Shown in pieces: positions 4,550 to 47,559 of a stretch of DNA of 64,000 nt. The DNA comes from a virus. Under the pieces are notes generated by a model. That model saw nothing but the letters and a program-made list of their open reading frames with translations. It was not told where the DNA came from and did not search any database. The translations under genes were made by a program, and so were the position numbers. The stretch lies in the IMG/VR virus record IMGVR_UViG_3300020056_002227, positions 96,001 to 160,000 of that record. One strand, written 5' to 3'. Every line of letters begins with the position of its first letter. Within the stretch, counting starts at the first letter, position 1.

Positions 4550-4584
4550 AATAAATATACCATTGATATGTATCCGTCTAAATA
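4550..4584 (+). promoter_or_regulatory. candidate T4-type late promoter(s): AATAAATA (4550-4557) and TCTAAATA (4577-4584)
   Basis: Variants of the gp55-dependent TATAAATA box in the intergenic gap before the 3162-aa gene. Confidence 0.45.
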
Positions 4585-4609: not shown

Positions 4610-7600
4610 ATGTCTAAGATTTCAGAACTCGGGCCGATTACAGGTGCCAATACTAGGTCAGAAGATTTATTTGTTATCGTAAACCTAGTACAGGGCGACG
4701 ACGGTACTAAAAATATTACTCGAAAAGAGCTCGTAGAAGCACTACAGTACGAGATTTTCAGTAGAATCCGAATCACTGGTGAATCGATCACCACTACCTT
4801 CATTTCGAACTCGGATCTTGACAACGTTAGAATCGATAATTCTACGATGGAAGATTCCGATATTTCTCGTAGTGATTTCAATAACGGTACACTCAGAAAT
4901 TCATCTGGTGACAATCTTGTAATCATCAACTCTCAATTCAATGACGGTACTGCTGATAACATCGTTATTACAAATTCCCAATTCAATCAAGGGGATATGG
5001 AAGATGTTGATGGCGATAATGTTCGCTTAATCAATTCGACGATTGATGACAGTGCCATCAGTGATTCAACTGCCAATAACATTAGCATCACAGATTCTAC
5101 ATTTAATAATGGTGCTCTATCTAACAGTACAGCAAATAATTTAGCCATTACCGCATCTACATTCGATAATGGTGAATTAACTAACAGCACTGGTGATAAC
5201 CTAGACATCACAAATTCTAATTTCGAAAATGGTACCATTGCCAATACTCAAATCGAAACCTCGGTATTCCAGAATGGTGTTGTTAGAGATTCAGATCTTA
5301 TTAATGTTGATATTACTGACTCGACATTTGATAATGGTGACCTAACAAATTCATCCGGCGACAATCTGACGATTGTAAATTCTGATTTCTCCGATGGTAC
5401 TGGTAATAATAATGTCTTTACCAATACCACAGTAGATAGAAGTTTAATTACAAATTCTGAAATTGCAAACACATCATTCACAGGTACGATGGATGGTGTA
5501 GTTGCTACTAACATGACCATTACCAGTTCTACTGCTGATGGTTTCAGCCAGAAGAATTCTACATTCGAAGACGGTGGTATTGACCGTTCGACTTTCGAAA
5601 ATGGTGTTATCGACAAATCTAAGCTTGTTGATTTCGATATGGAGATCAACGATGAGTTCGAACCACATATCGACGAGAACAGCTGGTTTGCACTCAAGAA
5701 TGAAAAGACTGGAGAGGTTGAGAGAATTACCTATGCTCAATTCTTCAGCGAGATTTCGAAGACCACTGAATCCGACCTGAAGATTTATGTGGATGCTGCA
5801 AAGGGTGATGATGATAATCCCGGCACGGTACTTCAACCAATCAGAACTCTTGAACGTGCTTCTGAATTGGCAAAAGAAAAGGCTGGTGGTTCTTTCGACC
5901 GAAATGCGATCAACAACGCCATTCATATCACGGTAGGCCCGGGTACATATTACACGAAAGGTAACATTGCATTACCAGATGATTGTGCCATGACCTCTAC
6001 TGCTGGTCAGTATGCTACAGTAATCGAGGCTTTGCCAGGATATGAACAGAACAACGCAATTCTTGTCGGTTCTGGTAACTACGTACAGGGTTTCGCATTC
6101 CAGAATTGGAAGATCGATAACTTCGATTTCCCAGAAGGTGGCTTTGCTTGTGCTTATAGACCCGGTGCTAAACTACTCCGATCTCCATATATCAGAGACA
6201 GCTCCCAGTTGTCTAACTTCCTACGAGAAGACGTAGAACCACCACTCCAGCCGTTCAATACCAAGGGCAATGTACTTGACCTCGGTAGAGAGTTTATTCT
6301 GGAAGTCGGCCATACAGGTGCCTTCTTACAAGACGACGAGATTACATTCTCCAGTGGTGCGAAAGGCTATATCTCATGGGATGATACAAATGATGCAGAT
6401 GCTGGTTTAACCCCAGACCTTGCTACAAACCGAAAAATCTTCGTCCGTAACCTGAAAAATAATAAAGGTTTTGCTGTAGGCGATACGGTTCGTTCTGAAT
6501 CTGGTGGTCTTGGTGTTATTCAAGAAATTGGCATCGATAACTTCCCGAACCCACTTGTCGGTAGAGGTGGTGGATGTATGTTGGCAGATAGAAGAGTCCT
6601 AGACCCCGACTCTCTCTACACATATGTTCTCTGCTTTGGTTTTACCCCTCGTTCTCAAAACGGTATGGGTTATGTAGCAAGAGACGGTGCTGGTGTTAAC
6701 GGAATTGGTTCTCTGTCTATCTTCGTTCGGGTGGCATTCTATGCTCTGAACGGTGGGCAGATGACTCTGAACAACTCTGGTACTCAGTTCGGTGATATCT
6801 CAATGAGAGCAAAAGGTAGTACCAAGATCTTTGCTCCGAAAGACACCACAGCCAATATGCTTGGTAACAGTGCCTTTGCAGATGTAATTACAGATAACGA
6901 AGATTTGATCATACAAGATATGGTCGAATACCTCACAGCAAATACAGCATCTGGTGGTCTTGGTTATACTGGCTACGATGCTGCTAAGTGTGAAAGAGAT
7001 TCTAAAATTATCATTGATGGTCTTGGATATGATATGTCGCTCGACACCAACTACTGGGGTCGACTTGCAGGCATTACATATCGTTCACCCATTTCTAGTA
7101 AGGTTGTTGGTGAACAGCTCGAAGCAACACTTGGAGCTAACAGATATTTGCAAGACAGAATCAATGATGTATTCCAAGGTTCAAACACGGAAATCTTTAC
7201 AAGAGCAAACACCTCTTGGAATGAACTCTACAATGTAGTAGAATACGGTGAAGAGAATATGAATCCAATCATATTCGCTGACACTGGTAATTCTGCTAGA
7301 ACATCTGCAAGAGAAATCATTCAAGACAATAGATCGTTTATCCAAGACGAATTGCTCGACTGGATCGATGACAATGACCAATTCTACGCTTATGATAGCG
7401 TCAAGTGCCGAAGAGACACAACAGAATATATTCTTCCAGCAGTAAAATATGATATGCTACTCGACACCAACTACAACTCGGTGAGAGCAGGTGGTGCATA
7501 TTACATGAAGTCTGCTGAGAAGGTTGTCGGCCAACAAAGAAATGAAACGATTGCAGCATATAAGAGACTGAAAGAACAGACCAATGAGTTGATTGATGCT

Positions 7601-10600
7601 AATTCTTTCATTGGAACAACGCGTGTTGATGAAGGTTTTGATGAGATCATTGCTGCCCTTGATAACCGAGGCACATTATATACACCTACAGATGCGACAT
7701 ATGACCCAGATACTGGTCTCATGGTTGCAACAATCGGTGCTCATACACTCACCGTTGGAAGAAAGATTCTTATCGGTGAAGGTGGAATCACATTTAGTTG
7801 CGGCACAGATGGTAACGTAACTCAAATTTCTCACCCAAGACCAACAGATCCTGCATTCAACAGCCCGTTGGAAATCTTGGCCGTTACAGCAACCACGATT
7901 ACAGTTGACGTTGGAACATCTTTCTATAAAGGTGTACACACATTCGTATCGGCACTAGATAACTCAATCATCGAATTGGGCTCTGAAATTACTTTCTCAG
8001 ACGATGCAGCAATCCCTGCTGACAGACGTAATGCAAGAAAGCAACTGCAGGCTAACAGAGGTTTCTTGCAGGATATGGTTATAGGATATATCGACAATAA
8101 CTATTTCCTATACGACTCTGAAAAGTGTGAGCGTGATATGACTCAATACATTCTACCTGCGGTAGAAAGAGACGTTATCACTGGATCCAATTTCAATGCT
8201 CGTCAAACAGGTATTGCTTACAGAGCCGGCACGATGGGTGCCGAGACAGTGGTCAGACAGCAATTACCAGAGACTGTTGGCGCAATCGAACATCTGAAAG
8301 GTTTAACCACTGCTGGGGTAAATGATCCAGCTGCATCTCACAGAGCAGAAGAATCGTTTAATCAGATTATTGATATTGTTAATAGCAATGGTAAGACATA
8401 TACTCCTACGTCTGGAACAACATATGATCCTGATACTGGTCAAATGATATTAGAGATTGGCTCTCATGATCTGCAAGAAGGTCAATCTATTATCATTGCA
8501 GACGAGAGTGTTACCTTTACCTGTGCCTTAGATTCTAATGTGACACAACATTCTTACCCACAGAAAGGTCATCCTGCATATAGAACTCCTGTAACAATTA
8601 ACAAAGTTACAGCAACCACTATATCCGTCAATGTTGGTGGATATGAGAATGGTACGGTTCACACATTTGTAAGTGCAACTGCTGATTGTATTAAGGCTGG
8701 TTCTTATATCAGTACATATACTCCATCTGATGCTCAATACGATCCAACTAATGGCGTAATGGTTGCAGTTATAGGCAAACACAATTTGGTCAAGGGAGAT
8801 TACATTCAATTCAAACCTTTGAGTATTACGTTTGAATGTAACGGAGATCAGATTACACACCCAAGACCTACTGATCCATTCTATAATAAGCAAATTAAAG
8901 TTGATGCAGTAACAGCAACATCGATCACAATGAATGTTGGTGATGCTGGTGGTTATACGGGTGCCCATACATTTGTAAGTGCAGAAGTTGGTGCGATCGA
9001 AGCAGATCCTATCATTTGGACAGATCCTGCAACATATCTGGATTACTATACACCGACGGATGCTACATATGATCCTAGCACGGGTATCAGTACGGTCACA
9101 TTACCAGGTCATGATATTGAAATTGGTGATTATGTTGAATTTGCTCCTTATAGTTTCACATTTACTTGTGCGGATGATGGCAATGCTACTGAGCATTCTT
9201 ATCCTCGTAAGGGTGACAGTAATTATCGTGAAACAATGGAAGTCACCAACGTCGCTGGAGATGTTATCACGGTTAATGTTGGTGGAACCGGTGGTGGTGG
9301 GTTACACACATTTGTAAGTGCATCAGATGCTGCCGTTGCTAAGACAACTTATAATTCTCAGGGTCAAAGAGCAAGAGAACAATTACAAGCTAACAGAACA
9401 TTCCTCCAAGAAGAGGTAATGGCCTTCCTCGATACGCAATACTTTGTCTTTGATGGCGATAAGTGTTCAAGAGACACAGGATATATTCTTGAAGCTGTCA
9501 GACGTGACGTATCTACTGGGTCGAATTATAATTCGGTCTATGCTGGTCTTGCATATCGTGCAGGAACTACCAGTGGAGATTATGTCATTTCAGACCAACT
9601 TCCACAAACCGTTGCTGCAATAGGTTATCTGAAAGATGAAATTGCAAGCAGAGTAACTGGTTCAGAGTTGACTGCCGCTAATGCAGGATTCGATGAGATT
9701 ATCGATATCTTGAGTAATGGTACAGGAAATGCAGATACCTTGAATTTTGGAACTGCAACTGTTGGTATTACTGGTCAAAACGGCAGATTACATTTACAAG
9801 CAAATAAGACATTCTTGCAAGAAGAAGCAATTGCGTACATTGCACAAGAATTCCCCGGCTTTGTTTATGATCAAGCCAAGTGCAGAAGAGATATTGGTTA
9901 TCTAGTAGATGCAATTTCTTTCGATATTTCTCATGGGTCTAATACCTCTGCAATCAATTTTGCTAGATTGTATTTCGATAAGGGTATTAGTACACTGCCT
10001 GAAAATCAAAAGGCTAAGACCGCAGAGGTTTATGAACACCTTGCAAATGTTGCTTCTAATATTGTACAAGCAATTGGTGTTACACCCACCACAGGCAATG
10101 CACAAAGTCAAGATATTGCAAATGCCGATGCTGGAATTGAAATTGCTAAGAGAACATATGATCTGATGGATCTTACTGCTAAGGTGATCAGAGAGGATAC
10201 TCTTGATTGGTTGCCAACAGCAATTGAACCCGGTTACAACACCGTGGCTCAGATGACAGCATCTAATACAATTGATGGAATTACAGAATCACTTCAGGGT
10301 GGTGTAATTAAGTACCTCAGAGAATTCCACAACGGTCTTCCTTATAATAAAGAAAAGTGCTACAGAGATGTCGGTCTCATTACCGATGCAATTTCTAAGG
10401 ATATCGAATACGGTGGAAATGCATCCACAATCGAAGCTGCAAAATATTACTTCACTGTCGATGAAAGACTTGCATCTTCTTATGAAGAACTCAGAACCAA
10501 GAACGTTCTTTCTATTCCAGTAACAGGTCAGTTCTCTGTGCTGGATGATCTGGCTGCAGTATCTGGTCTTAGAGAGGCTACAAATATTCTGCCTCAAGAA

Positions 10601-13600
10601 CAGCGTATTCCTACCAAGAGAGCGTTCGAACATCTGGCTGCAACCGCGGCCTCTATCGTTCAAGAAGTTGCAGTAACACCTACCACAGGTAATGCTCAAG
10701 TACAGGACGTATCTGGTACAGCCGCAGATGCTGCTACAGGTACAGCAGTGGCAAACCTGTTTAATATTATTTCTGGTGTTGTCGATGATAATGATCTCGA
10801 CAATCTGACCACTACCGAAGTCAAGCCACTTGCTGATCCTAATAGAACAGTTGCTCGTCAGCAGATCCAAATGAACAAAGAGTTCATTATTGATGAGGTT
10901 GTTGCTTATCTCAACGATGAGTTCTTCACCTTTGACGGTGAGAAATGTAAGAGAGATTTGGGCCTGATCATAGATGCAGTAAGACGAGACGTACTGACTG
11001 GTTCTGATTTCAATTCAAACTTTAACGGTCAGGCTTATAGGTCTGGAACTGTAGGTTCGAATTTGGTCATTGATGAACAGCTCACAGAAACCGTTTCTGC
11101 TATCAGATATGCAAAAGACCTTTGCGTGAATTCGATCGTCGATCCTGCTACGGCAACAATTGCTGCAGCAAGATTCGACAAGATTATCGATATCATGGGT
11201 AATGGTACTGCATATTCTAACGTAATTGAATACGGTTTTGATTCTGTCACGGCTGAAAGAATTAATGCAAGATCACAGTTACAGCTCAATAGAGCGTTCA
11301 TCCAGGCAGAAATAACTGCATGGATTGCACTGAATTACGGATCACTCACATATGATGTTGCTAAGTGTGAAAGAGACGTTGGCTATCTGGTAGATTCTGT
11401 GTCTTGGGATATTCAACACGGTGGTAATACAGCTTCGAGAAATAATGCAACACTGTATTTTGAGAATGCTGTAAGCACTCTACCTGAAGATCAACGTGCT
11501 CCTACTGCAGCCGCATTTGTTCACCTTGCTGCAGTTGCTAGATTAATTGCTAATGGTGATCCTGTCACACCTACAACTGGTAATGCCCAGACACAGAATA
11601 CTGCTTCTGGTAACTCCGGTGGACCAATTGCAAGTGTTGTAGAGTCTCTATTCACAATTGTCGCAAATGCAATTCAGCAAAATGGAATCGACGGATTACC
11701 TGCTCTTGAAGAGCCTATTGTAACTGCTTATAATCCAGAATTGCAAGCCGCATATAATTCTATGGGCACAGCAAAGATAACTGCCCAAGACGGCGTATTG
11801 CAACACCTTTCTACTTACTTCAATACTCTTTACTACAATGAAGATAAGTGCAGAAGAGATACCGGCTACATTATCGATGCCGTATCACACGATATTCAAT
11901 ACGGTGGTAATGCTGCTACTGTAAATGCTGCTCACAACTACTTCCAAAATGCTGTAAGTACATTGCCTCTCAATCAGAGAGAACCTACCAGAAAGGCATT
12001 CTTACGCTTGGGTATGGTGATGAATCATATTACCCGCGAGATGGAAGTAACACCGACTGTTGGAAACACACAGACTCAATTCTATAACCATGTTGCTGCA
12101 AATCCTGCAACAGGCATGTTGGTTGAAGATCTGGTTAAGATTGTTGCTAATTCGGTTGATGATGCAACTCCGGCAACTACAGCAATTCCTGCAATTGTTG
12201 AACCTTCTCAGACATGGGTTTCTGGCAATTACACCAGTGCTGTAGATGTGATAGAGAGTTCTTCTAAGACATGGGCAGACGGTGTGATCAGTCACATTAG
12301 TACCACTTACAACGGATTGAGCTTCCCACGAGGTAAGTGCAGAAGAGATGTTGGATATCTTGTTGATGCCGTTTCTCACGATGTTCAATACGGTGGAAAC
12401 TATGCTAGTAGAATTGCGGCAGGAATTTATTTTGAGAATGGAATTTCTGTACTCCCAGCAGACACTAGAGTACAAACCGCTGACATTTATAATTTCCTAG
12501 GTGTTCTATTGGCTGGTGTTGTGCAAGAGACTGATGTTTCTAATACTACACTAACAGATACAGCACAAGATACAAGTGGTACTCCTGCTACTCTAACCGA
12601 AGGTACAAGAGTTGCAGAGTTGATATCGATAGTAGAAACCGTAATTAGAGATGACGATTTAGATGCTCTGCCAATTATGGAAGAGCCAGATACATCTTGG
12701 GTTGCGGCAGATCTCATTGCAACAGCAGAGATGATCGATGACAATACCGAAGAGCTGTCAATTGATCTGGTCGAATTCTTAAGAAGAGAATTTGATGTTC
12801 TGGATTACAACCGAGATAAGTGTCGACGAGACACTGGATATCTACTTGATGCATTTAGCTATGATCTGAACTATGGAGGTAATACTGCATCTCGCTGGAA
12901 TGCTGACTTCTACTTCTGGAATCAGATTTACAGAATCCCAGAAGATCAGAGAGTACCTACTGCTAGATCTTATCAGCAACTCGGTCGAATCTGTAAAGAT
13001 GTTGTCCTTGGTAAATACCCAGGTCAGGTCGTCAAGAGTGGAACTGGAACCGAGGTAGAATCTAAAAAGGTTCAGGACCTTGCAAACATCTTCTACCTGA
13101 CTCAAATAAATAACGATACAACATATCTACCCGTAAAAGAAGAGCCAGATTATAGCTGGATTCCAGATATTGTATCTGATGTGTCATCGATTCTGGAGTT
13201 TAATAAGATTGATCTAGCTTTCGATACAGTAAGATATGTAAATGCGACATATAAATACATTGATATTAATCTCACACGTAGAGATGGTTTGAATTTGTTG
13301 AAGGCCATTGAGCAAGACTTTAAGACGCTCAACCCACAGGGGCCACCTGCTTCAGATGATTACCTAGAGAACGGAGATAGACAAAGAACCAGAGCATATA
13401 CAGCTGCATTGTTTGATTTCAATGGTAATCAGGCATTCCCTGTATTCAATGCTACAACACCTGGTTTGAGGTATCAAAGTTCTGTACAAAGAAGTGCTGG
13501 TGATGCAACTGATGTTGATGGTGCAATCCCTCTGGCAGACCGCAAACCATATTATGCATATATTGTGGCAACAGACTTGAATACAAGTTTCTACGCTGGA

Positions 13601-14098
13601 GATATATACTATTGGGATGGAACACAATGGATATTTGATGGGCCAAACAATACCGATCTACTAGATGCCTTTACTGGTGCTTGGGAGAGAATGAGAGATT
13701 ATCTAGTTACTCTTTCACCAGATGCAGATCACACTGCAATGATTAATGGCTTGATCGATGATTGTTTGATCGATAACGTACTAAGACCAGAAACATTGAC
13801 ATTCGGGTCTCTAGTTGAATCGATTGCTCACCAGTTTAACGGTGCCTCTGCTGGTGTAAACAGAAACGCACTTCCATTGAACTTCCGAAACCTTGGTCTG
13901 CCAATCTCGGCACTGGCCTCGGTTCTCTCAGAAGATGGAGGACGTGTGAGATGGTCTGGTGCTGATGAATTGAATAACCAGTACTTTGCAAGGGGTTTGA
14001 GAATCAACGGTAGAACAGGAAGAATTGAAGGTAGACCATTTACCTCATCGGTAAGAAAACTTGCAAGAAGAGCTTCTAACAGCAGAGCTTCAGTATAA
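4610..14098 (+). CDS. giant putative virion protein: N-terminal beta-solenoid repeats, pectin-lyase-like beta-helix, 11-12 phycobiliprotein-like (globin) repeats and 4 beta-rich modules
   Basis: 3162 aa. SxFxNG repeats at about aa 60-340; beta-helix entry motif IYVDAAKGDDDNPGT..PIRTLERA; KCxRD motifs at Cys 794, 933, 1173, 1619, 1758, 1917, 2113, 2253, 2414, 2577 and 2738; four YTPxxAxYDPxTG modules. It lies in the late structural region. Confidence 0.75.
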   Translation: MSKISELGPITGANTRSEDLFVIVNLVQGDDGTKNITRKELVEALQYEIFSRIRITGESITTTFISNSDLDNVRIDNSTMEDSDISRSDFNNGTLRNSSGDNLVIINSQFNDGTADNIVITNSQFNQGDMEDVDGDNVRLINSTIDDSAISDSTANNISITDSTFNNGALSNSTANNLAITASTFDNGELTNSTGDNLDITNSNFENGTIANTQIETSVFQNGVVRDSDLINVDITDSTFDNGDLTNSSGDNLTIVNSDFSDGTGNNNVFTNTTVDRSLITNSEIANTSFTGTMDGVVATNMTITSSTADGFSQKNSTFEDGGIDRSTFENGVIDKSKLVDFDMEINDEFEPHIDENSWFALKNEKTGEVERITYAQFFSEISKTTESDLKIYVDAAKGDDDNPGTVLQPIRTLERASELAKEKAGGSFDRNAINNAIHITVGPGTYYTKGNIALPDDCAMTSTAGQYATVIEALPGYEQNNAILVGSGNYVQGFAFQNWKIDNFDFPEGGFACAYRPGAKLLRSPYIRDSSQLSNFLREDVEPPLQPFNTKGNVLDLGREFILEVGHTGAFLQDDEITFSSGAKGYISWDDTNDADAGLTPDLATNRKIFVRNLKNNKGFAVGDTVRSESGGLGVIQEIGIDNFPNPLVGRGGGCMLADRRVLDPDSLYTYVLCFGFTPRSQNGMGYVARDGAGVNGIGSLSIFVRVAFYALNGGQMTLNNSGTQFGDISMRAKGSTKIFAPKDTTANMLGNSAFADVITDNEDLIIQDMVEYLTANTASGGLGYTGYDAAKCERDSKIIIDGLGYDMSLDTNYWGRLAGITYRSPISSKVVGEQLEATLGANRYLQDRINDVFQGSNTEIFTRANTSWNELYNVVEYGEENMNPIIFADTGNSARTSAREIIQDNRSFIQDELLDWIDDNDQFYAYDSVKCRRDTTEYILPAVKYDMLLDTNYNSVRAGGAYYMKSAEKVVGQQRNETIAAYKRLKEQTNELIDANSFIGTTRVDEGFDEIIAALDNRGTLYTPTDATYDPDTGLMVATIGAHTLTVGRKILIGEGGITFSCGTDGNVTQISHPRPTDPAFNSPLEILAVTATTITVDVGTSFYKGVHTFVSALDNSIIELGSEITFSDDAAIPADRRNARKQLQANRGFLQDMVIGYIDNNYFLYDSEKCERDMTQYILPAVERDVITGSNFNARQTGIAYRAGTMGAETVVRQQLPETVGAIEHLKGLTTAGVNDPAASHRAEESFNQIIDIVNSNGKTYTPTSGTTYDPDTGQMILEIGSHDLQEGQSIIIADESVTFTCALDSNVTQHSYPQKGHPAYRTPVTINKVTATTISVNVGGYENGTVHTFVSATADCIKAGSYISTYTPSDAQYDPTNGVMVAVIGKHNLVKGDYIQFKPLSITFECNGDQITHPRPTDPFYNKQIKVDAVTATSITMNVGDAGGYTGAHTFVSAEVGAIEADPIIWTDPATYLDYYTPTDATYDPSTGISTVTLPGHDIEIGDYVEFAPYSFTFTCADDGNATEHSYPRKGDSNYRETMEVTNVAGDVITVNVGGTGGGGLHTFVSASDAAVAKTTYNSQGQRAREQLQANRTFLQEEVMAFLDTQYFVFDGDKCSRDTGYILEAVRRDVSTGSNYNSVYAGLAYRAGTTSGDYVISDQLPQTVAAIGYLKDEIASRVTGSELTAANAGFDEIIDILSNGTGNADTLNFGTATVGITGQNGRLHLQANKTFLQEEAIAYIAQEFPGFVYDQAKCRRDIGYLVDAISFDISHGSNTSAINFARLYFDKGISTLPENQKAKTAEVYEHLANVASNIVQAIGVTPTTGNAQSQDIANADAGIEIAKRTYDLMDLTAKVIREDTLDWLPTAIEPGYNTVAQMTASNTIDGITESLQGGVIKYLREFHNGLPYNKEKCYRDVGLITDAISKDIEYGGNASTIEAAKYYFTVDERLASSYEELRTKNVLSIPVTGQFSVLDDLAAVSGLREATNILPQEQRIPTKRAFEHLAATAASIVQEVAVTPTTGNAQVQDVSGTAADAATGTAVANLFNIISGVVDDNDLDNLTTTEVKPLADPNRTVARQQIQMNKEFIIDEVVAYLNDEFFTFDGEKCKRDLGLIIDAVRRDVLTGSDFNSNFNGQAYRSGTVGSNLVIDEQLTETVSAIRYAKDLCVNSIVDPATATIAAARFDKIIDIMGNGTAYSNVIEYGFDSVTAERINARSQLQLNRAFIQAEITAWIALNYGSLTYDVAKCERDVGYLVDSVSWDIQHGGNTASRNNATLYFENAVSTLPEDQRAPTAAAFVHLAAVARLIANGDPVTPTTGNAQTQNTASGNSGGPIASVVESLFTIVANAIQQNGIDGLPALEEPIVTAYNPELQAAYNSMGTAKITAQDGVLQHLSTYFNTLYYNEDKCRRDTGYIIDAVSHDIQYGGNAATVNAAHNYFQNAVSTLPLNQREPTRKAFLRLGMVMNHITREMEVTPTVGNTQTQFYNHVAANPATGMLVEDLVKIVANSVDDATPATTAIPAIVEPSQTWVSGNYTSAVDVIESSSKTWADGVISHISTTYNGLSFPRGKCRRDVGYLVDAVSHDVQYGGNYASRIAAGIYFENGISVLPADTRVQTADIYNFLGVLLAGVVQETDVSNTTLTDTAQDTSGTPATLTEGTRVAELISIVETVIRDDDLDALPIMEEPDTSWVAADLIATAEMIDDNTEELSIDLVEFLRREFDVLDYNRDKCRRDTGYLLDAFSYDLNYGGNTASRWNADFYFWNQIYRIPEDQRVPTARSYQQLGRICKDVVLGKYPGQVVKSGTGTEVESKKVQDLANIFYLTQINNDTTYLPVKEEPDYSWIPDIVSDVSSILEFNKIDLAFDTVRYVNATYKYIDINLTRRDGLNLLKAIEQDFKTLNPQGPPASDDYLENGDRQRTRAYTAALFDFNGNQAFPVFNATTPGLRYQSSVQRSAGDATDVDGAIPLADRKPYYAYIVATDLNTSFYAGDIYYWDGTQWIFDGPNNTDLLDAFTGAWERMRDYLVTLSPDADHTAMINGLIDDCLIDNVLRPETLTFGSLVESIAHQFNGASAGVNRNALPLNFRNLGLPISALASVLSEDGGRVRWSGADELNNQYFARGLRINGRTGRIEGRPFTSSVRKLARRASNSRASV
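6860..13400 (+). repeat. array of 11 (+1 degenerate) KCxRD helical repeats
   Basis: Consensus R..AR.Q(L/I)Q.N..F(L/I)..E...(Y/F)....Y(D/N)..KC.RD.GY(L/I).DA...D...GGN; spacing is 139-163 aa where no insert is present. Confidence 0.9.
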
Positions 14099-33053: not shown

Positions 33054-33096
33054 GATTAGTAAAAAATTAAACGCCTATCTGGGGAGAGTGAACCGA

Positions 33097-36000
33097 ATGG
33101 CAAATGATAAAAAGTTTATAGCCAAAAATGGCCTATTGACTCCACAAAAAGCGATCATTGGATCGACTACCGATAACGGTGTAGATGAATTACAGGTTAC
33201 CGGAACAAGTAATCTTGCCGGTGCTGTAACAATTGAAAACGCCACTGCATCTACGATATCACTTGAGGTCGAAAACACTGGTGCCGGTGGCTTTACCCCA
33301 ACAGCAAATATTGCTAAATTTACTGGTGATATAGATTCACTCTCTATTCAAAATGTGATAGGTGGTTCTTATCGCATTACCAATCCGGGCAATAACAATA
33401 GAATAATTTTTTATAATAACACATCTGGCATTGATATTCAATATGCTGGATCAAGTCGTCTTGCAATAACTTCCACGGGAAATGATTTCTCTGGGTTGAA
33501 TACCACTACTATCGATGGTAACAGAATTATCACGGTATTAGATCAGGCAAGTCAAGGTGGTTCATTTGACGCTGCTACTCTTGATCAATTAGACTCCACA
33601 CAATTTGTTCGGTCAGATGAATCTGACACAATGAATGGTAGTTACATCATTACAGGCGACCTCACAGTCAGTGGTAATACAACCTTCATTAACACGGAAC
33701 AATTACTTGTTGCAGATAACATCTTCACTCTTAACTCGGACTTCACAACTGGAAACCCGACCGAAGATGCTGGAATGGAAATCCGTAGAGGTGGTCAAGC
33801 AAATTCTTCGTTTGTTTGGGATGAAACGAATGATTATTTCAAACTAATTTCTGCTGGAACAGATCTTGGTCGTATCATCACCACTGCTGATGAGGGCCCG
33901 GGCAATGGATTTGATGCAGACACCGTCGATGGCTTGCATGGATATCAATTCTTAAGATCAGACGTCGACGATACCGCAAATGGCAATATTACAATCCTAG
34001 GTGGATTGACGGTTGGAGATGGTAACGGCCCTGCTCGAATCGATATGAACGGTTCTGGTCAGGCAAGAACAATCTACACAAATAACGGCGAGATTGGTTT
34101 CCTCAATTCTGGCTATAACTGGGCCGTTAAATCAGATGCCAATGGTGATCTTGAAGTAGAACGCGATGTTGAAGCAGGCAGAGATGTACTAGCAGATGGT
34201 GATGTTACTGCTCAAAATAATATTACTGCAACCACTGGAAATATTACTGCTACTGCTGGTTCTATCTCTGCTGCAACCACTGTAACAGCCGGTACAGATG
34301 TTATAGGTCAACGATTTGTAGATGCTGACGATAATGCTTACTATGCTGATCCGGCAAGTAATTCGATTTTTAGTGGCCTAGGGTTAGATGATAATCTTTT
34401 CCATAACGGTGATACAGATACCAGACTACGATTCGAAACCGATCACATCAAATTAGAAACTGGTGGTAACGTTCGATTCGATGTTAATAATTCAAGAGTA
34501 TTGGCTTCACTCGACACATATGTCCCTAATCTTGTAGTCAATGATGCAATCATTCATAATAATGATACAGATACTCGAATTCTTTTTACCACTGACGTTG
34601 TTCAAATTGATACGGGTGGTAGCACAAGATTACAAGTAGATAATGCTGGTGTAGATATATTCGGCAATCTCGACGTTACTAATACAGCAACTGCAAATAC
34701 AGTAATAGGTCTCACCTCGATGAGATCGCCGATTTACTACGATACAGATAATGATTCATATTTCGGTAACTTTGCTGGCACATCGGTGATGAATGATATC
34801 AGCATCGATGATTATATTTCTCATAATGGTGATGCTGATACATATTTCGGTTTTGTTGGCCCAGATCAAATCAGATTTGCTACGGGTAATGCACAAAGAC
34901 TTTATATTAGTAATAGTCAGATTGAATCTTCGGTTTATTTCTATGCTCCAAGATTCGTTGATTTGGATAATAACAGTTATTATGTTGATCCAAACAGCAC
35001 TTCTATTCTATCAACGGTTAATGTTGATGACTGGTTGCAACATATTGGTAACGAAGATACTCGCATAGGCTTCCCTGCAACTGATACGATCAATATACAG
35101 ACTGATGGTTTCACAAGATTTATTGCCAATAATAGTCAGGTAACAGTAACCACCGATCTCAAAGTAGACGGTAACATTATCTCTGGTGGTGACGGCATCT
35201 TTGACGGTGACGTATACGCATCTAAATTCATCGATTCAGACGATAATAATTATTACGCAGACCCAAATGCCACATCCGTGATGAAGACAGTTGGCATCGA
35301 TGACTACATCGTACATAATGGTGATTCTGATACCAAGATTGGATTCTTAATGAATGATACTCTGCAAATGGATGCAGGTGGAACGACAATTTTCATCGCG
35401 CAATCTACTGCAGCAGAATATTACGTCGACCTTTATGGTGAAGATGCCTATTTCAGAACATTCTACGATAATGACAATTCTGCTTACTTCTTGAATCCAG
35501 CCGAAACGGGCGTTTCTTTGAATGTTGCTGGTCTTGTAAGAACAGGAAACGGATCCGCAGCAGGCCCGGCCTATTCATTCGGCAGTGATACCAATACCGG
35601 CATGTATCGAAAGGGAGCCGATCAGATTGGATTCTCGGCTGGAGGTAACGAAGAGTTAGTTGTTTACAATAACAGAGTAGAGGCACCGGGTGAAGTTAGA
35701 TCCCCTATCTTTTACGATTTAGCCACTCCAGCATATTATGGTGACTTTGCCTCAACATCTCAAATGAATCGTATCGATATCGATGATTATATTCGCCATC
35801 GAGGTGATACCAATACCTACATGGGATTCGATGCAGCAGATAGTTGGGGTGTTTGGGCCGGTGGCACGAAGAGATTAGGTATTGATACTGACTCAGCAGA
35901 CTTTACTGTTGATGTATACGCACCTAAATTTATTGATAGCGATAATAACAGTTACTACCTCGATCCTGCTGATACAAGCACATCTGCCACATTGAATGGT

Positions 36001-39000
36001 AAGGTGTTAATCGGTAATGTCTCCGATGCTGCAAGATGGGATGACAACACGGGTAACGGTGGCATCTCGTTAATGAATCATGGTTCATATGCTTCGGGAC
36101 AAAATACAACTGTAGGAATCAGTGGTAATTACGCTGGTGGTTATTCATTGATGTATCTCAATAGAATTGATCCTAACACAAATCCTTTCAATGCCGGCAA
36201 TAGATACATTCATTTTTACCATGATGGAAATCAAGGTACAAATTTAAGTGGTGACAGTAGTGGTAATCTCTATTGGTTGATGCTAGCCGGTACATCGCAA
36301 TCATACTGGACACAAGCAGGATCTACTATATTTACTATCAATGATAATGGTAATCTTGTTGTCGGGGGTAGTAGCCCAACGTATACAGACGGAGGTGACA
36401 ATACACCTCTTACTGCAGCAATCAATCCTGCTAAACTGCACGTCAATGGATCTATCTACCTCAATGGTGCTAATGACGGTATTATCTTCGGTAGAGGAAC
36501 TGCGTCATTCTTAAGAGATGAAGAACTAGGATTTGGGTGGGGCGGTGGTTGGTATATGACCGATGCTACCTACTTGCGTGTTCGAAATAATAAGGCTGTT
36601 TATTCTGGTGGAGATGCGTATTTCAATCGTTATTATGATACAAACGCAACAAGCCGCTGGATAGAGCCAGGTGGTGGTGGTATCCTCGCTGGTAATTTTG
36701 AGTTTGCAGCTACAGATACTGGTACATCTTATTCGACTGCTGCTATTGAACTTCGTGAATCTAACTATACTGGTAACGGTACTGCTACTCCACCTCGCAT
36801 TTCTTGGCACTGGGGCGGTGTTGTTGCTTCACAAATGGCTATCGAATCGTCTGGCCGCATTGTTGTCAGAAACAATCCCGGTAATGGTTATGAGGCGTTT
36901 GGTGCTGGAAATATCTATGGTACAAAATTCTGGGATATAGACAACAATAACTTTTCATTTGAACCCAATGTATCTAATGCTTGGAGATTACAGACTCCAA
37001 CCGGCTACCTCGATTTTGGTTCAATGAACGCTAGTTATCTTCACTTCCAAACAGATAGGCCAGCATTCTACTTTAACCAACCAGTAAGTTTCGATGGTAA
37101 TATTGCTGGTTATGGTGGTAATGAGACTGCATCGTTTGCTCGATACTACGATAGTAATGATACCGATTATTGGGTAGACCCTCATACATTCTCGCGGATG
37201 AACGGTATCAATTTCGGTATACCAGGAAATGGAACAAATACCAAAGGCCGTTACCTTTCAATTGAAGGTAATACTGACGGAAGTGGGGAAGGTTCTTCAA
37301 GGATCTTCTTTGCAGAGCATAACAGCACGACAGGTTCAATGTCTGCTTACGGCATGTCTCTTGGTTATAGAGGTGGAGCTACAAGTATTGTTGGTGGTGA
37401 TGGAAATACATGGACGGGCTTAAGTCAGATCAATAACGGTGAATGGGGTCTATGGGGCCACAATGGTTCTGCCATTGGTTCATGGGCAATGAAAGGACCA
37501 AGAGACGGCACCTATGTTGTTGCCTCGGGTTCATTCCGTGCTCCTATTTTCTATGACTGGACAAGCTCTTCTTGGTACGTCAATCCAGACGGTGATTCAA
37601 GACTCAATACAATTACTCTTGATGGTAATGCTGTACAGCTTAGAGAACCCACTGGAAACTATGGTTCATTCATGGTTGATGGTGGTGCTAGAGGTGGTTA
37701 CGAAGGATTCTCAATCGGTGGCCGTGTTGTCTTTATGCACAACAATGCATCGGCTTCTGGTATTTACGACGATGTTAATAACCAATGGATGGCAAGATTT
37801 AATCTTGGTTCTAATGTCGATCTCCGCTATGCTGGTGTTGTACAAGCAGAAACTGCAAACGGTTATTTCCTTGCTAATAATGAGATTCGATCACCAATCT
37901 TTAGAGACACGACATCGCCTACTACATGGTTCGTAGATCCTTCGGGTACTTCTCGAGTCAACACACTGAGAACAAATCGAATTTATCCCGCGTACGATAA
38001 TGACACAAGCATTTATATCGACTATGTTGGTGGTGATTATGGATCACTTCAGATTAATGGTGGTGGTAAAAACGGTTGGAGAGGTCTATCTCTTCTAGGT
38101 CAATTCGTATGGATGACACCTGGTGATGGCGCTCGAAACGGCATCTATAACGACATTGATAATCAATGGCAACAGCAATGGTATCGTGGTGCCGGTTCAA
38201 TATTATATTATGCAGGCGGTTCACAATTCTCAATTGAAAACGGTTATGCTCTCGCAACAAATCAAATGCGAGCTCCAATTTACTATCCACCATCTACTAC
38301 CTCCTATTATCTGGATCTTGATAGAGGAAATACAAATCAGGCATTGAGAGTCGGTGGTATCATAGAAAGAGTTGGATTCCAAACCTCTGGTGATGGTAAC
38401 AATAACATTTTCAATCGTGCTCAAGATTATTCTCATTGGATTTGGCAGACAGCAACTGATTGGGGTATTTTCTGGGCTGGAAACAACAACCCATATCGTT
38501 CATATTTCAGTACCTCAAACCCGAATGAAATCGTCTTTATTGGTAATGGTAATCTCAGAGCTTCTATTGATCTGGATGATGGACGTGCTCACTTTACAGG
38601 TAATGTTAGTGCTCCAGACTTTTTACTAAATGGTGGCAATGAAGATATATCGTTGAACCCAGCATATGGTTCTGGTGGTGCGGATCTTGTACTCTTTGAT
38701 ATGACACCATATTTTGAGGCTCGTGTTACTCGAGTTTTGAGGGGAGCTGAAAACAATTTAACTGGTACGACATCTGAATATGTTAAAGGTGACGGACCAT
38801 TTGCCGGTTCTTATGTTCTCCAAACATCTAATTACCGTACATTCTATTCTGATTATATTCCAGTTGTGCCAGGTGAAGATCTGTACGGTGAAATTTCTCA
38901 TAGAGTCGTTTCTGGATCTGGTGGTAGACTATACTACGGTATCGAAAGATTCGATAAAGATAAGAGACCGATCGCAGGCAATACAGGTACTACATACTTC

Positions 39001-42000
39001 GTAGCTGGTGGTAGCATTTATACGAACACTACTTGGCAGACACAAAGAGCTCATACAACTCTTCCAACCAGCCACACACCATACAATGGATCAGACGGTG
39101 GTGGTGTACACTGGGTAAGAATTCGAATTCTAATCAACTACAATTCCGGTGGTGCTCTTAGACAGATCGGTGGCATTATGCTTAAACGGCGTAATGTTGA
39201 GTCTAATTTACTCGTCGATAACATCGTAGCAAATGACATTCTTGCAGATGATATTACTGCCGATAATGTTGATGCATATCGATTCAGAGATCGTGATGCG
39301 ACTGGATATTATGTTGAACCTGCTAACATAACCCAATCTGCTCGTTTCAGAGGTCAAACCTACTACGGGCCGAATGCTACTTGGGGCGCTTACTTAACGG
39401 TTGGTGGCGACGGCCGAAACGGCTATATCAATAGTGGTACTGCTTCTGTTGCTACTACAAACGGTAATTTACACCTTGATTCTGGATCCGGTTACAATAC
39501 CTACATTAATTACTATGACGGAAGTAATATTTACTTTGGTACTGGAGGCAACGCAACACATTCAGTATGGGAAAGTAACGGTGATCTTAGAATTGGTGGT
39601 TCCGGTTCCACGGCCGCTTCAGGATTTAAGCTTCATGTAGATGGAAACACTTATGTAAATGGTAATGTAAGAGCTAATAGATTCGAAGACACTTCGTCTC
39701 CTAGTAGTCGGTACGTTGACCCTGCTAGCACTTCACAAATCAATCGACTTAATGTTAATGAAATTAAGTCTTTCCCGAGTCCACAATACGGACAACTTTT
39801 CTTTGATCACAGCGGCATCGCATACCCCAGTGGAAGAAGTCAGGTAGTTGGTACAGGTCTAGGAATTTACTCTTCTTATAGTGGAGGTTCCGGCAATCCA
39901 TTTACTTACGACATTACAGCGTCTTTCAATAATAATGGAAAGGCATTTGAAATTGCAGCCGACTGGATTAATACGAACAGAACACCTCTATTAGTAAGAT
40001 CTCTTAGAGATTGCTGTCAGAACTGGACACCTTGGACACAGATTGCTACATCAGGTGTAGAATTCCTTACTGGTGCTGGAATCAAGGCTCCATGGTTTGC
40101 AGATAGCGATAATGATTTCTATAGAATGGATCCAGCCAGTACCTCGCAAATTAATGCCATGAATATGCGTGGCACATTGAATATGGAGTTCGGCGCACAG
40201 ATCAACTTACGTGCACCAGGTACGAACAACCTTCGTGGTTATATTCAGGTACGAGACTCGAACGACGGCCACTTAAGAATTGCTACCTCGGGTGGTGAAG
40301 ATATTCGCTTCATGGATGGCGGCCTCGATGGTCAATGGAATATGATTATCAGAGGCGATGGTAATACTCTGATTAATAACTACATTGACGCTACAAGATT
40401 CAGAGATCGTAATGATCCATCCAATTACTATGGTGACTTTGCTTCTACATCGATAATGAATCAGGTCGACGTAAATCGAATTAGAAGTAGAAATTCAACC
40501 GGTTACTTCTGGGATGGAAATGAAGACCTTGCGATGTATGTCTATGGTGAGATTTCTAACTCTAACTATGCAACCGGTAATTTACAGCCAGGTGCTCTGA
40601 ATATTGGTCGAACAGATCGTAACTATAGATTTACTGGAGACGGTGGAAGTTGGGCAGGTGATATTCGTGCTGGAATCTTGGCCAACTGTTCTGAATACTG
40701 GGAATTTGCACTTCATGACTCAGGTCGATCTGTTGAATCCCTTTTGTATTATGATACGGCAAACATTCACATTGGTCGAAATATTGGCTGGGGTACTTCT
40801 CGTGTAATTCATCCGGGTGGTACGGCATCTACTATCTATACGGATTGGACTAACACTGGTTATTACTTGAACCCTGAAGGTCTCAATGATTCGAATATTA
40901 ATGGTGTGAATAACCGTACATCGGCTATGATGGGCATGCCTGGGCATACAAGAAATTCAGGTTATTATTACAGAGCAAGACCGAGACAAACTAGTAATAC
41001 CGACTATTGGACAGGTGCCTTTGGTTGGGGTCGTATCGACATGAACCAGGTTGCAACATGGGGTTCTGGCTTTATTGATTCTTGGAGTAATCCACCTAAC
41101 CAACCTTCGGGTACATCTCACTGGGTTGGTGCTCAGGCCTTCCACTATAGAAATAGTAATACATCTGGTTATGGCTGGCAGATGGTTGGTGGTCCCATTG
41201 AAGGATTGAGATTCCGTTCCTCTTGGCCAAGCTGGAGATCGTGGAGAAATATTGTAGTAGGTGGTGTCAACGATGGCTCTGCTGCCGGCACGATTTACGC
41301 ACCTAGATTTACTAATACAACTAATACCGGCTATTATGGTGACTTCGACACAACGTCAAGAATGAATGTTATTGACATTAACGAAGGGTATAACTACGGC
41401 TGGTGGAGAAATAGAACCTCAGGTCGCGGCTTATATAGCCAGGCAAATGGCAGACACTTCTATAGCCCGGGCAACGTGTATTGGCATATCGATGGTAGAA
41501 GTGATGTTGGTGGCCTTATTTTCTACGATCGTTATAATAGTTCACAGGGCAGTGGTACAGGTCGTCGTGGTTACGTATACTACGATGGTTCCGGCTTCGG
41601 TCTTTTACACAGCGGTGGAGGCTGGGCAGTTCGAACAGTTTCTGGTACTACAGAACTTTATGGTAATGCCTATGCTGGAACATTCCGAGCAAATATCATC
41701 TATGATCGTGACAACGGTGATGGTTGGTATTGGAATGGTGGCGGTACTTCTAGGTCTAATGTAACAATTACCAATACGAGCTATTTTAGTTCAAATACGA
41801 ATAGAGGTTATGCGGAAGGTTACGGTACCAGAGGTTCCGCACTGCGCAGAATATCCTATATTTCGATGAACAACGGAAGCAGTGCTTGGAATAGCTATAA
41901 CTATCACGGTATTGCATCTACTAACTCATCTAATAACTTTGCTGATAGTATATCGATTAACTCTTACAATGATATTACTATGCGGCTTGATTCGAATAGC

Positions 42001-46780: not shown

Positions 46781-47559
46781 AAAGAATTCAGAAAGTGGTA
46801 ATAGCAACTGGTGGTTTCGATCCAATTCACAGTGGTCATATACGATATTTAAATAATGCAAGACTTTTGGGTGATGTGCTAATAGTAGGTTTGAATTCGG
46901 ATTCTTGGTTACAAAGAAAGAAGGGAAAGGAATTCATGCCGATCGAAGAGAGATCAGCAATAGTCAGTAATTTAAAATGTGTAGACGATGTAATCACTTT
47001 TGATGATTCTGATAATAGCGCAAAAGATGCAATTACTCAAGTAAGAAACCGATACCCTAAAGCTCACCTAATCTTTGCTAACGGGGGAGACCGTACCTCA
47101 ACTAATATACCAGAGAAGTCATTAAATATTTCTGGTTCAATCGAATTTTATTTTGGTGTCGGTGGTAATGATAAGGCAAATAGTTCAAGCTGGATTTTAT
47201 CGAGTTGGGGTGATTGGAAAGACGAGAAGTGGCCACGAGCATGGGGACATTACAGAGTTCTCTATGAGGTGGACAGTAAAACAAAGGTCAAGGAACTAAC
47301 TGTCTACCCTGGCCGAAAATTAAGCCTTCAGAAACATTTTCATCGTCATGAATATTGGATGTGTATAGAAGGTTCAGCAACCGTATATACAGGCTATGAA
47401 CCATCGAATTTAAAAATGAAACAACTTGACGCTCACGAAGAAATCACTATACCCCTTGGTTATTGGCATAGACTTGAAAACAACACAGACGAAAACGTAA
47501 AGATAATAGAGATACAATACGGCACAGAATGTGTTGAGAGTGATATTACTCGATTATAA
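46777..47559 (+). CDS. cytidylyltransferase-like domain fused to a mannose-6-phosphate isomerase type II-like cupin
   Basis: TGGFDPIHSGH (HxGH), VGLNSD and FANGGDR, followed by RAWGHYRVL, LSLQKHFHRHEYW and IIEIQYG. The TTG start overlaps the previous stop and has a GAGGAG RBS. Confidence 0.85.
   Translation: MKRIQKVVIATGGFDPIHSGHIRYLNNARLLGDVLIVGLNSDSWLQRKKGKEFMPIEERSAIVSNLKCVDDVITFDDSDNSAKDAITQVRNRYPKAHLIFANGGDRTSTNIPEKSLNISGSIEFYFGVGGNDKANSSSWILSSWGDWKDEKWPRAWGHYRVLYEVDSKTKVKELTVYPGRKLSLQKHFHRHEYWMCIEGSATVYTGYEPSNLKMKQLDAHEEITIPLGYWHRLENNTDENVKIIEIQYGTECVESDITRL

What the first reader, a model, noticed from the sequence alone, without database searches (positions are those of the whole stretch)
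6860..13400. Tandem phycobiliprotein-like (bilin-binding globin) domains in a giant phage structural protein
Seen: eleven repeats carry an invariant K-C-x-R-D, with Cys codons at 6989, 7406, 8126, 9464, 9881, 10358, 10946, 11366, 11849, 12338 and 12821; a twelfth has lost the Cys (LTRRD, 13271). Examples are KCRRDTGYIIDAVSHDIQYGGN and KCYRDVGLITDAISKDIEYGGN. Established (recalled from memory, to be verified): the chromophore site of phycocyanin alpha reads [22 protein letters not shown]. There Cys84 forms the thioether to the bilin and Arg86/Asp87 contact it, and the Cys-to-GG spacing (18 residues) is the same as here. The flanks also fit. The upstream helix RINARSQLQLNRAFIQAE resembles allophycocyanin RLRIAQTLTENRERIVKQ, and the downstream TVAAIGYLKDEIASRV...AGFDEIIDILS resembles TVQAIQAMKEVTASLV...YFDYICSGLS. 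The repeat length (139-163 aa) equals one globin domain. Inference: a virion fibre displaying about 11 tetrapyrrole sites per chain, possibly for photoprotection, light sensing or host-surface binding. This would also offer a use for phage-encoded bilin enzymes (Ho1/HemO, PebS, PcyA, PcyX, CpeT-like lyases), including in phages whose hosts lack phycobilisomes. I know of no description of such a virion protein.
Basis: partly seen in the sequence, partly recalled or inferred. Interest (0 to 1): 0.92.

Follow-up and report, generated by a model that had tools for sequence, protein, structure and literature searches.

The report
Phycobiliprotein-fold repeats in phage fibre protein
A 3,162-residue tail-fibre-type protein of an uncultured marine T4-like phage holds eleven intact copies and one decayed copy of a domain related to the light-harvesting pigment proteins of cyanobacteria; the copies keep the pigment-attachment residues, and the phage also makes its own pigment precursor, so whether a virus particle carries pigment is now testable.

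Summary
ORF 4610-14098 (+, 3162 aa) has K-C-x-R-D at exactly the eleven Cys codons listed, where chance predicts 0.0025. A twelfth copy reads LTRRD.

The fold reading is supported.
- An AlphaFold model of one repeat (pTM 0.78) matches only phycobiliproteins among the top 48 Foldseek hits listed (TM 0.54-0.70).
- Profile-profile comparison with 31 real phycobiliproteins gives 94.8% probability (E 5e-8). It aligns the Cys, Arg and Asp to Cys84, Arg86 and Asp87. Reversed and shuffled controls score far lower (best score 21.2, P 0.014, against 53.3).

The X-Y hairpin and its partner residues Arg93 and Tyr97, which pair alpha with beta, are absent. Bilin binding and presence in the virion are not shown.

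New here: this phage is probably not a cyanophage. It and 11 relatives lack psbA, and it carries 5-aminolevulinate synthase, heme oxygenase and a PcyX-like reductase but no known bilin lyase. However, Pelagibacter phage Mosig has hemO and a pcyX-like gene without the repeats.

One lead: the repeats are present in S-PM2, P-HM1 and P-HM2, which need light to adsorb, and absent from P-SSM2, which adsorbs in the dark.

The scan had already noted such domains in other (cyanophage) genomes. I found no paper describing them.

The parts
4610..14098 (+). Giant tail-fibre-type ORF, 3162 aa (P0001)
   Evidence: Open frame. PHROG matches are to tail fiber and virion structural protein families. Neighbours match tail-fibre, collagen-like fibre and fibre-assembly families. 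An AATAAATA motif, the NATAAATA late-promoter type, lies at 4551-4558 upstream of the ATG. This is weak evidence.
4787..5644 (+). N-terminal pentapeptide-type repeat region (about aa 60-345)
   Evidence: Pfam Pentapeptide_4, E 8.2e-13, 5 stretches, above the curated cut-off.
6773..7246 (+). Phycobiliprotein-like repeat 1 (KCERD, Cys codon 6989)
   Evidence: Profile match; motif.
7208..7666 (+). Repeat 2 (KCRRD, Cys codon 7406), short type
   Evidence: This is the stretch that Pfam PF00502 aligns to (aa 900-1017 to profile positions 42-155).
7928..8386 (+). Repeat 3 (KCERD, Cys codon 8126), short type
9332..9718 (+). Repeat 4 (KCSRD, Cys codon 9464), short type. This repeat was modelled.
   Evidence: AlphaFold model of aa 1572-1712: pLDDT 83.8, pTM 0.78. 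Fold matches.
9683..10177 (+). Repeat 5 (KCRRD, Cys codon 9881), long type
10151..10771 (+). Repeat 6 (KCYRD, Cys codon 10358), long type with an extra loop
10742..11203 (+). Repeat 7 (KCKRD, Cys codon 10946), short type
11168..11668 (+). Repeat 8 (KCERD, Cys codon 11366), long type
11639..12151 (+). Repeat 9 (KCRRD, Cys codon 11849), long type. This repeat was modelled.
   Evidence: AlphaFold model of aa 2344-2514: pLDDT 77.2. Fold matches.
12122..12637 (+). Repeat 10 (KCRRD, Cys codon 12338), long type
12605..13096 (+). Repeat 11 (KCRRD, Cys codon 12821), long type
13064..13405 (+). Repeat 12, decayed (LTRRD; Thr at 13274 in place of Cys). Only the first 101 of 173 profile positions match.

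Best explanation
The ORF encodes a giant tail-fibre-type protein. Its middle and C-terminal two thirds are a string of eleven intact domains and one decayed domain. These are true but very divergent relatives of phycobiliprotein subunits, closest to the alpha subunits of phycocyanin and phycoerythrin. Each domain keeps the globin-type core (helices B, E, F', F, G, H) and the residues that hold the bilin at position 84 in phycobiliproteins: the thioether Cys, then Arg and Asp two and three residues on, and Gly-Gly at +18. It has lost the N-terminal X-Y hairpin and the Arg93/Tyr97 positions that pair alpha with beta, so it cannot build a phycobilisome-type disc. The most likely working is inferred, not shown: each domain attaches one linear tetrapyrrole to its Cys without a dedicated lyase, as ApcE and the BBAG globins do. 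The bilin would come from the phage's own 5-aminolevulinate synthase, heme oxygenase and PcyX-like reductase, and the fibre would then carry about 11 pigments per chain. The pigment's purpose is the weakest step: the best guess is light-dependent control of adsorption, and the alternative is recognition of a host surface receptor. Sub-probabilities: homologous phycobiliprotein-type fold about 0.9; covalent bilin about 0.5; a light-related role in adsorption about 0.2.
Against: No pigment has been shown. The models carry no ligand, and I could not inspect coordinates for a pocket. Pfam PF00502 falls just below its curated cut-off (20.2 against 22.2 bits), and only 2 of 70 single repeats reach E 0.025 or better. 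Foldseek E-values are only 0.035-0.2. Pelagibacter phage Mosig has hemO and a pcyX-like gene but no repeat. A relative holds two repeats with no reductase in 74% of its genome, and another holds a reductase with no repeat in 47% of its genome. P-SSM2 has no repeat; from my own knowledge, unchecked here, it nevertheless carries bilin genes. Together these show that bilin genes and repeats are not tightly linked. I know of no report of coloured or fluorescent phage preparations. Presence in the virion is inferred from neighbours and family names only.
Confidence: 0.5

Rival explanations
1. A pigment-free structural module. The phycobiliprotein fold was captured once and is reused only as a compact helical spacer that sets fibre length (2 to 36 copies per protein). 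Cys, Arg and Asp are kept for folding, or for disulfide links between chains outside the cell.
For: Copy number varies widely, from 2 copies in a 733-aa relative to 36 stretches in one protein, as expected of a spacer. Bilin genes and repeats do not co-occur tightly. No lyase gene is present.
Against: Everything else in the domain has drifted to about 23-25% mean column identity, yet the three residues that hold the bilin in phycobiliproteins, plus Gly102, are kept in about 96% of more than 1200 copies. Residues that serve subunit pairing (Arg93, Tyr97) are not kept. One Cys per domain gives no disulfide within a domain. In the cyanobacterial paralogues fetched here, most of those that lost the Cys have also lost the Arg-Asp pair.
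Confidence: 0.3
2. The domains bind a ligand, but the purpose is host recognition rather than light. The displayed tetrapyrrole, or an empty tetrapyrrole pocket, engages a host outer-membrane tetrapyrrole or heme transporter, much as other phages and colicins exploit TonB-dependent receptors.
For: The likely host is a Gram-negative heterotroph. The protein sits among fibre genes. The phage invests in heme and bilin synthesis.
Against: This is pure inference and nothing here tests it. Receptor-binding parts of fibres are usually at the tip and variable, whereas these domains are internal and repeated. The same domains occur in cyanophages, whose hosts largely lack such transporters (own knowledge).
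Confidence: 0.1
3. No common descent: a helical bundle that resembles phycobiliproteins by chance, with a chance C-x-R-D.
Against: Phycobiliproteins fill the top of two independent fold searches, followed by an orderly fall-off through photocobilins, sensor globins and haemoglobins. Profile-profile E is 5e-8 and controls score far lower. Three separate segments each align in the same order and register. The motif lies on the same helix at the same position.
Confidence: 0.05

Closest known systems
Phycobiliprotein alpha subunits (CpcA, CpeA; Pfam PF00502)
   Different: No X-Y hairpin, and Arg93/Tyr97 are not kept, so no alpha-beta pairing or discs. The domains are fused head to tail 2-36 times inside giant phage fibre proteins, not free 160-aa subunits. 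Identity is about 17-23%. The score is below Pfam's curated cut-off. No lyase gene is present. Pigment is not shown.
ApcE bilin-binding domain and smURFP (a fluorescent protein derived from allophycocyanin alpha)
   Different: ApcE carries one such domain with its Cys at another position, and it is part of the phycobilisome core. smURFP is an engineered protein.
BBAGs (bilin biosynthesis-associated globins) and photoglobins/photocobilins (PMC10151467)
   Same: These are phycobiliprotein relatives found in non-photosynthetic bacteria. BBAG-1 and BBAG-3 carry CXRD and bind bilin by themselves. They go together with heme oxygenase and a PcyA-type reductase, as in this genome. Photocobilins rank just below phycobiliproteins in the fold search. 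BBAGs were proposed as possible partners of the phage hemO-pcyX products (PMC11480375).
   Different: BBAGs are free-standing cellular proteins encoded next to the enzymes. Here the domains are in a phage fibre gene about 62 kb from hemO and pcyX. I had no authentic BBAG sequences to compare. Divergent cyanobacterial paralogues score much worse than true phycobiliproteins (P 0.0025 against 5e-8).
Giant virion proteins of T4-like cyanophages (for example S-PM2 p088, and the 'tail protein' of S-CAM1 and S-WAM2)
   Same: They carry the same repeat family, have the same giant size and sit among virion genes.
   Different: Those phages infect cyanobacteria and carry psbA. This phage and its relatives lack psbA, and this phage carries a Shemin-pathway ALA synthase and a TonB-dependent receptor. 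Identity between the proteins is only about 24-27%.

Membership tests
Phycobiliproteins (PF00502) | Globin-type phycobiliprotein fold (helices B, E, F', F, G, H) | tested here: met
Phycobiliproteins (PF00502) | Score above Pfam's curated cut-off | tested here: not met
   The whole protein scores 20.2 bits against a cut-off of 22.2 (E 6.4e-4). Only 2 of 70 single repeats match, best E 0.025. Profile-profile comparison is nevertheless clear: 94.8%, E 5.3e-8.
Phycobiliproteins (PF00502) | Cys84, Arg86 and Asp87 bilin site on helix E | tested here: met
   Present in 11 of 12 repeats. hhalign aligns it to C84, R86 and D87, which are invariant in the 31 phycobiliproteins. The Cys is kept in about 96% of family copies.
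Phycobiliproteins (PF00502) | N-terminal X-Y hairpin with Asp13, and Arg93/Tyr97, for alpha-beta pairing | tested here: not met
   Alignments begin at phycobiliprotein residue about 33 (hhalign) or about 20 (fold search). D13, R93 and Y97 are invariant in the phycobiliprotein set. In the repeats, the position aligned to R93 is Asp and the position aligned to Y97 varies.
Phycobiliproteins (PF00502) | Covalently bound bilin | not testable with these tools
   This needs co-expression, a Zn blot, spectra or mass spectrometry.
BBAG bilin-binding globins | Free-standing globin encoded next to heme oxygenase and a pre-PcyA/PcyA-type reductase | tested here: not met
   The domains are fused in a 3162-aa fibre ORF. 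hemO and the reductase lie at genome positions 37854-39209 and the fibre gene at 100610-110098.
BBAG bilin-binding globins | Closer in sequence to BBAGs than to light-harvesting phycobiliproteins | not tested
   No authentic BBAG sequence was at hand. Divergent cyanobacterial PF00502 paralogues give P 0.0025 against 5.3e-8 for true phycobiliproteins.
T4 gp6/gp7-type baseplate helical domains (PF21379) | Match to the Gp6-like helical domain profile | tested here: inconclusive
   2 of 70 repeats match, best E 0.0026. No such match appears for the whole protein.

The most novel reading that the evidence does not exclude
The virion is pigmented and acts as its own photoreceptor. Bilins on the fibre's phycobiliprotein-type domains make adsorption depend on light. 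This would explain the unexplained light-dependent adsorption of S-PM2, P-HM1 and P-HM2. It would also give a purpose to the alaS-hemO-pcyX genes of phages that infect non-photosynthetic bacteria: they would supply chromophore for the phage's own particle.
Probability: 0.18. Interest if true: 0.95.

Novelty: new variant of a known kind. Interest (0 to 1): 0.85.

Why it matters
Phycobiliproteins are known as light-harvesting antenna subunits, and their wider family (BBAGs, photoglobins) as free cellular proteins. A branch of the family built into phage fibres, in strings of 2 to 36 domains that keep the bilin site, is a new setting. A pigment-bearing virus particle would be new to virology.

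It makes two open questions testable with existing isolates and simple co-expression.
- Why do some cyanomyoviruses adsorb only in light, independently of host photosynthesis (PMC6628666)?
- What are heme oxygenase, PcyX and ALA synthase for in phages whose hosts have no phycobilisomes? PMC11480375 asks exactly this.

A lyase-independent, compact bilin-binding domain could also be useful as a fluorescent tag scaffold.

Tried and rejected
- A profile of the 12 repeats against PDB sequences found no match even at E 10, so sequence alone did not reach solved structures.
- Megablast of the gene against phage records found nothing.
- The search for related loci with the 12-repeat alignment failed for lack of a conserved stretch. 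A single stretch of three repeats worked.
A tighter short-type repeat gave the clear answer.
- Co-occurrence of repeats with the reductase could not be settled. Nine viral contigs with the reductase had no repeat but are at most 42% complete. Among 11 capsid relatives only one has repeats and only one has a reductase, and all are incomplete.
- A tight link between pcyX and the repeats is rejected, because the complete Mosig genome has hemO and a pcyX-like gene and no repeat, while the positive control found all 12 in this genome.
No CpeT was found in this 170-kb record, which is 77% complete.
- A search for stand-alone homologues of 75-357 aa found only four, and the two whose sequences I read look like fragments of giant proteins.
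- Exact TATAAATA is no more frequent than chance in the window, so promoter evidence for late expression is weak.
- The literature gave no virion-proteome evidence for the S-PM2 homologue p088.
- T4 baseplate proteins did not appear among the 50 listed fold matches. This does not exclude them.
Full report
OBSERVATION. The window holds one open frame from 4610 to 14098 on the + strand, 3162 codons. K-C-x-R-D occurs eleven times. A twelfth copy reads L-T-R-R-D, with the L codon at 13271 and Thr in place of Cys at 13274. The protein's composition predicts 0.0025 such motifs by chance, and no other ORF checked in 129-43571 has C-x-R-D.

The twelve stretches align as one family with two subtypes. 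The short type has a period of about 139-140 aa (repeats 1-4 and 7). The long type has a period of 159-196 aa and an extra loop (repeats 5, 6 and 8-11). A profile of the repeats finds 12 copies in the whole 169.7-kb phage record, all inside this ORF.

THE FAMILY. A profile search of 1.84 billion representative proteins finds 1420 proteins at E 0.001 or better. The best are giants of 2,000-6,400 aa with up to 36 matched stretches. In 151 of them I counted 1233 motif instances, and about 96% keep the Cys: KC 652, TC 237, LC 90, SC 61 and so on. Among isolated phages, tblastn finds the repeats in 91 records. All are named Synechococcus phage, Prochlorococcus phage or cyanophage, and the proteins are annotated as tail fibre, tail protein or virion structural protein. 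Predicted viral structures in BFVD with the same fold are pieces of the same kinds of protein. Stand-alone homologues hardly exist.

FOLD.
- The model of short-type repeat 4 (aa 1572-1712) is good: pLDDT 83.8, pTM 0.78, with helices at 12-23, 25-39, 45-65, 69-78, 83-91, 93-108 and 113-132.
- All of its top 48 listed Foldseek hits in the PDB are phycobiliproteins or their derivatives: phycocyanin, allophycocyanin and phycoerythrin alpha chains, ApcE and smURFP. Probability is 0.99-1.00, TM normalised to the query is 0.54-0.70, and identity is 14-23%. For the best matches, rmsd is about 3 A over 130-137 of 141 columns. Foldseek E-values are only 0.035-0.2.

SEQUENCE HOMOLOGY, WITH CONTROLS. I fetched real phycobiliproteins. 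PF00502 searches of five cyanobacterial genomes then gave alpha and beta chains of allophycocyanin, phycocyanin and phycoerythrin. Thirty-one of these were aligned.
- hhalign of 70 phage repeats against them gives 94.8% probability, E 5.3e-8, over 115 columns. The match covers phycobiliprotein residues 33-161. The repeat Cys, Arg and Asp fall on Cys84, Arg86 and Asp87, and a conserved Gly of the repeats falls on Gly102.
- Reversed profiles and 20 column shuffles score at most 21.2 (P 0.014), mostly P above 0.2, against 53.3 for the real pair.
- With the motif masked on both sides, the same 115-column register returns at P 0.0047. The part before the motif alone gives P 0.0038, and the part after Gly-Gly alone gives P 4.5e-4. 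So the match does not rest on the motif alone.
- Short-type and long-type repeats each match on their own, at 3e-7 and 1.4e-6.
- The closest subfamily is CpcA/CpeA (P 1e-6). Beta chains give 8e-4, allophycocyanin alpha-type 6e-4 and allophycocyanin beta-type 3e-3.
- Pfam's own PF00502 model scores the whole protein 20.2 bits, E 6.4e-4. This is just under its 22.2-bit cut-off and in the same register. Single repeats rarely reach it.

WHAT IS KEPT AND WHAT IS LOST. The residues kept are those that hold the bilin at position 84: Cys, Arg, Asp and Gly102. Lost are the X-Y hairpin with Asp13, Arg93 (aligned to an Asp in the repeats) and Tyr97 (variable). All three are invariant in my phycobiliprotein set. 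By established knowledge they make the alpha-beta contact. This pattern is what one expects of a domain that still binds pigment but no longer builds discs. That reading is inference.

THE GENOME IS PROBABLY NOT A CYANOPHAGE'S. The window is positions 96001-160000 of an IMG/VR record of 169,742 bases, estimated 77% complete.
- Its tail sheath is closest to phages of Stenotrophomonas, Sinorhizobium, Caulobacter and Pelagibacter (38-42%).
- Its capsid protein is closest to Sinorhizobium phiM12-type and Methylophilales phages (72%) and to Pelagibacter HTVC008M (70%). Cyanophages follow at 68%.
- It has no psbA or psbD and no hli. Eleven capsid relatives, about 0.8 Mb in all, also have no psbA. 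[quoted passage not shown]
- It carries a TonB-dependent receptor gene.
- It carries a 5-aminolevulinate synthase of the Shemin pathway (TIGR01821, 566 bits, cut-off 339).
- It carries a heme oxygenase and a ferredoxin-dependent bilin reductase side by side. The reductase is PcyA-like but far below the equivalog cut-off. Its best isolate match is Pelagibacter phage Mosig (35.5%).

This is the alaS, hemO and pcyA/X gene set described for uncultured aquatic phages thought to infect alphaproteobacteria. That paper asks what the catabolic enzymes are for, and suggests a phytochrome or a BBAG globin as partner (PMC11480375). I put a non-cyanobacterial host at about 0.85. The main reservation is that every isolate with the repeats is a cyanophage. 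No CpeT, CpeS or HEAT-type lyase, and no plant-type ferredoxin, was found. If bilin is attached, it must therefore be attached by the domain itself or by an unknown enzyme. Self-attachment has precedent in BBAG-1 and BBAG-3 (PMC10151467) and, from established knowledge, in ApcE.

IS THE LINK WITH BILIN GENES GENERAL? Not tightly.
- The complete Mosig genome has hemO, a pcyX-like gene and a ferrochelatase gene but no repeat. Nor does HTVC008M. The same search found all 12 in this genome.
- Nine reductase-bearing viral contigs had no repeat but are at most 42% complete.
- Among 11 capsid relatives, one (74% complete) has two repeats in a 733-aa protein and no reductase. Another (47% complete) has a reductase and no repeat.
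- The 733-aa protein is a compact version of this one. It has a beta-helix-like N-terminal part, then two domains reading KCKRD and KCSRD, then a similar C-terminus.

A LEAD ON LIGHT. Adsorption of S-PM2, P-HM1 and P-HM2 needs light, independently of host photosynthesis. P-SSM2 adsorbs in the dark. The cause is unknown and has been ascribed to light-sensitive receptors or tail fibres (PMC6628666). The repeat profile finds 9 copies in two giant S-PM2 proteins, 5 in P-HM2, 4 in P-HM1 and none in P-SSM2. This amounts to two independent positives and one negative, so it is a lead and no more.

MECHANISM AND RIVALS. Shown in silico: the repeats, the fold, the homology, the retained site, and the bilin pathway in the same genome. 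Inferred: virion location, covalent bilin, self-attachment and purpose. The main rival is a pigment-free spacer, given 0.3. The wide range in copy number and the loose link with bilin genes favour it. The selective retention of exactly the bilin-site residues across more than 1200 copies counts against it. Receptor mimicry (0.1) and chance resemblance (0.05) are the others.

NOVELTY. Full-text searches found no paper describing phycobiliprotein-type domains in phage structural proteins. The library does not cover subscription journals. This scan had already noted such domains in several cyanophage genomes, and follow-up reports exist. This report adds the following: the same domains in a phage lineage without psbA that carries alaS, hemO and a pcyX-like gene; the absence of CpeT here; the controlled homology statistics; the Mosig counter-example; and the match with adsorption phenotypes.

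LIMITS. No coordinates were available to measure a pocket. No authentic BBAG sequences were compared. Host assignment is indirect. All relatives in the viral collection are fragments.

Noticed in passing
window 7679-7954, 8405-8677, 8717-8983, 9047-9322: Four copies of a second module of about 90 aa interrupt the string of globin domains. It is probably beta-rich. Three begin Y-T-P-(T/S)-D-A-x-Y-D-P (the fourth start is my estimate), all end H-T-F-V-S-A, and each carries its own conserved Cys (T-F-S/T/E-C). Neither Pfam stretch scanned over these modules gave a match.
   Followed up: partly
window 5762-6840 (aa about 385-745): The stretch upstream of the repeats starts like a right-handed beta-helix tailspike domain (IYVDAAKGDDDNPGT...). 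The same kind of N-terminal part precedes the two repeats in the 733-aa relative (L311:552-2753). Pfam gives only a weak DUF7305 hit.
   Followed up: partly
G000:C1:8086-9357 (-), 37854-38597 (-), 38601-39209 (-); outside the window: The same phage genome encodes 5-aminolevulinate synthase (Shemin pathway), a PcyX-like bilin reductase and a heme oxygenase. This is the 'broken cassette' described in PMC11480375.
   Followed up: yes
G000:C1:166464-167792 (+); outside the window: A 956-aa ORF with a TonB-dependent receptor beta-barrel (PF00593, E 1.5e-36) sits in a phage genome. This supports a Gram-negative heterotroph as host.
   Followed up: partly
phage records NC_015284, NC_015280, AJ630128, NC_006883: The repeat profile finds 5, 4 and 9 copies in P-HM2, P-HM1 and S-PM2, which adsorb only in light. 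It finds none in P-SSM2, which adsorbs in the dark.
   Followed up: partly
window 33088-43140: A second giant ORF (3350 aa) ends in a Peptidase_S74 intramolecular chaperone domain (E 2.5e-14), as in self-cleaving tail fibres and endosialidases. It has no C-x-R-D.
   Followed up: no
window 46777-47559: A 260-aa protein among the structural genes joins a cytidylyltransferase-like domain to a mannose-6-phosphate isomerase-type cupin domain.
   Followed up: no
window 22355, 43062, 47555, 55154, 59970: All six exact TATAAATA sites lie on the + strand. These five (the sixth, at 13250, lies inside the giant ORF) lie 26-78 bases upstream of an ORF start, for example the sheath gene at 60037. They behave like T4-type late promoters, although the count is no higher than chance.
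   Followed up: partly
L223 (MT647606.1 35644-44285): [quoted passage not shown] It has no phycobiliprotein-type repeat anywhere in its genome.
   Followed up: partly
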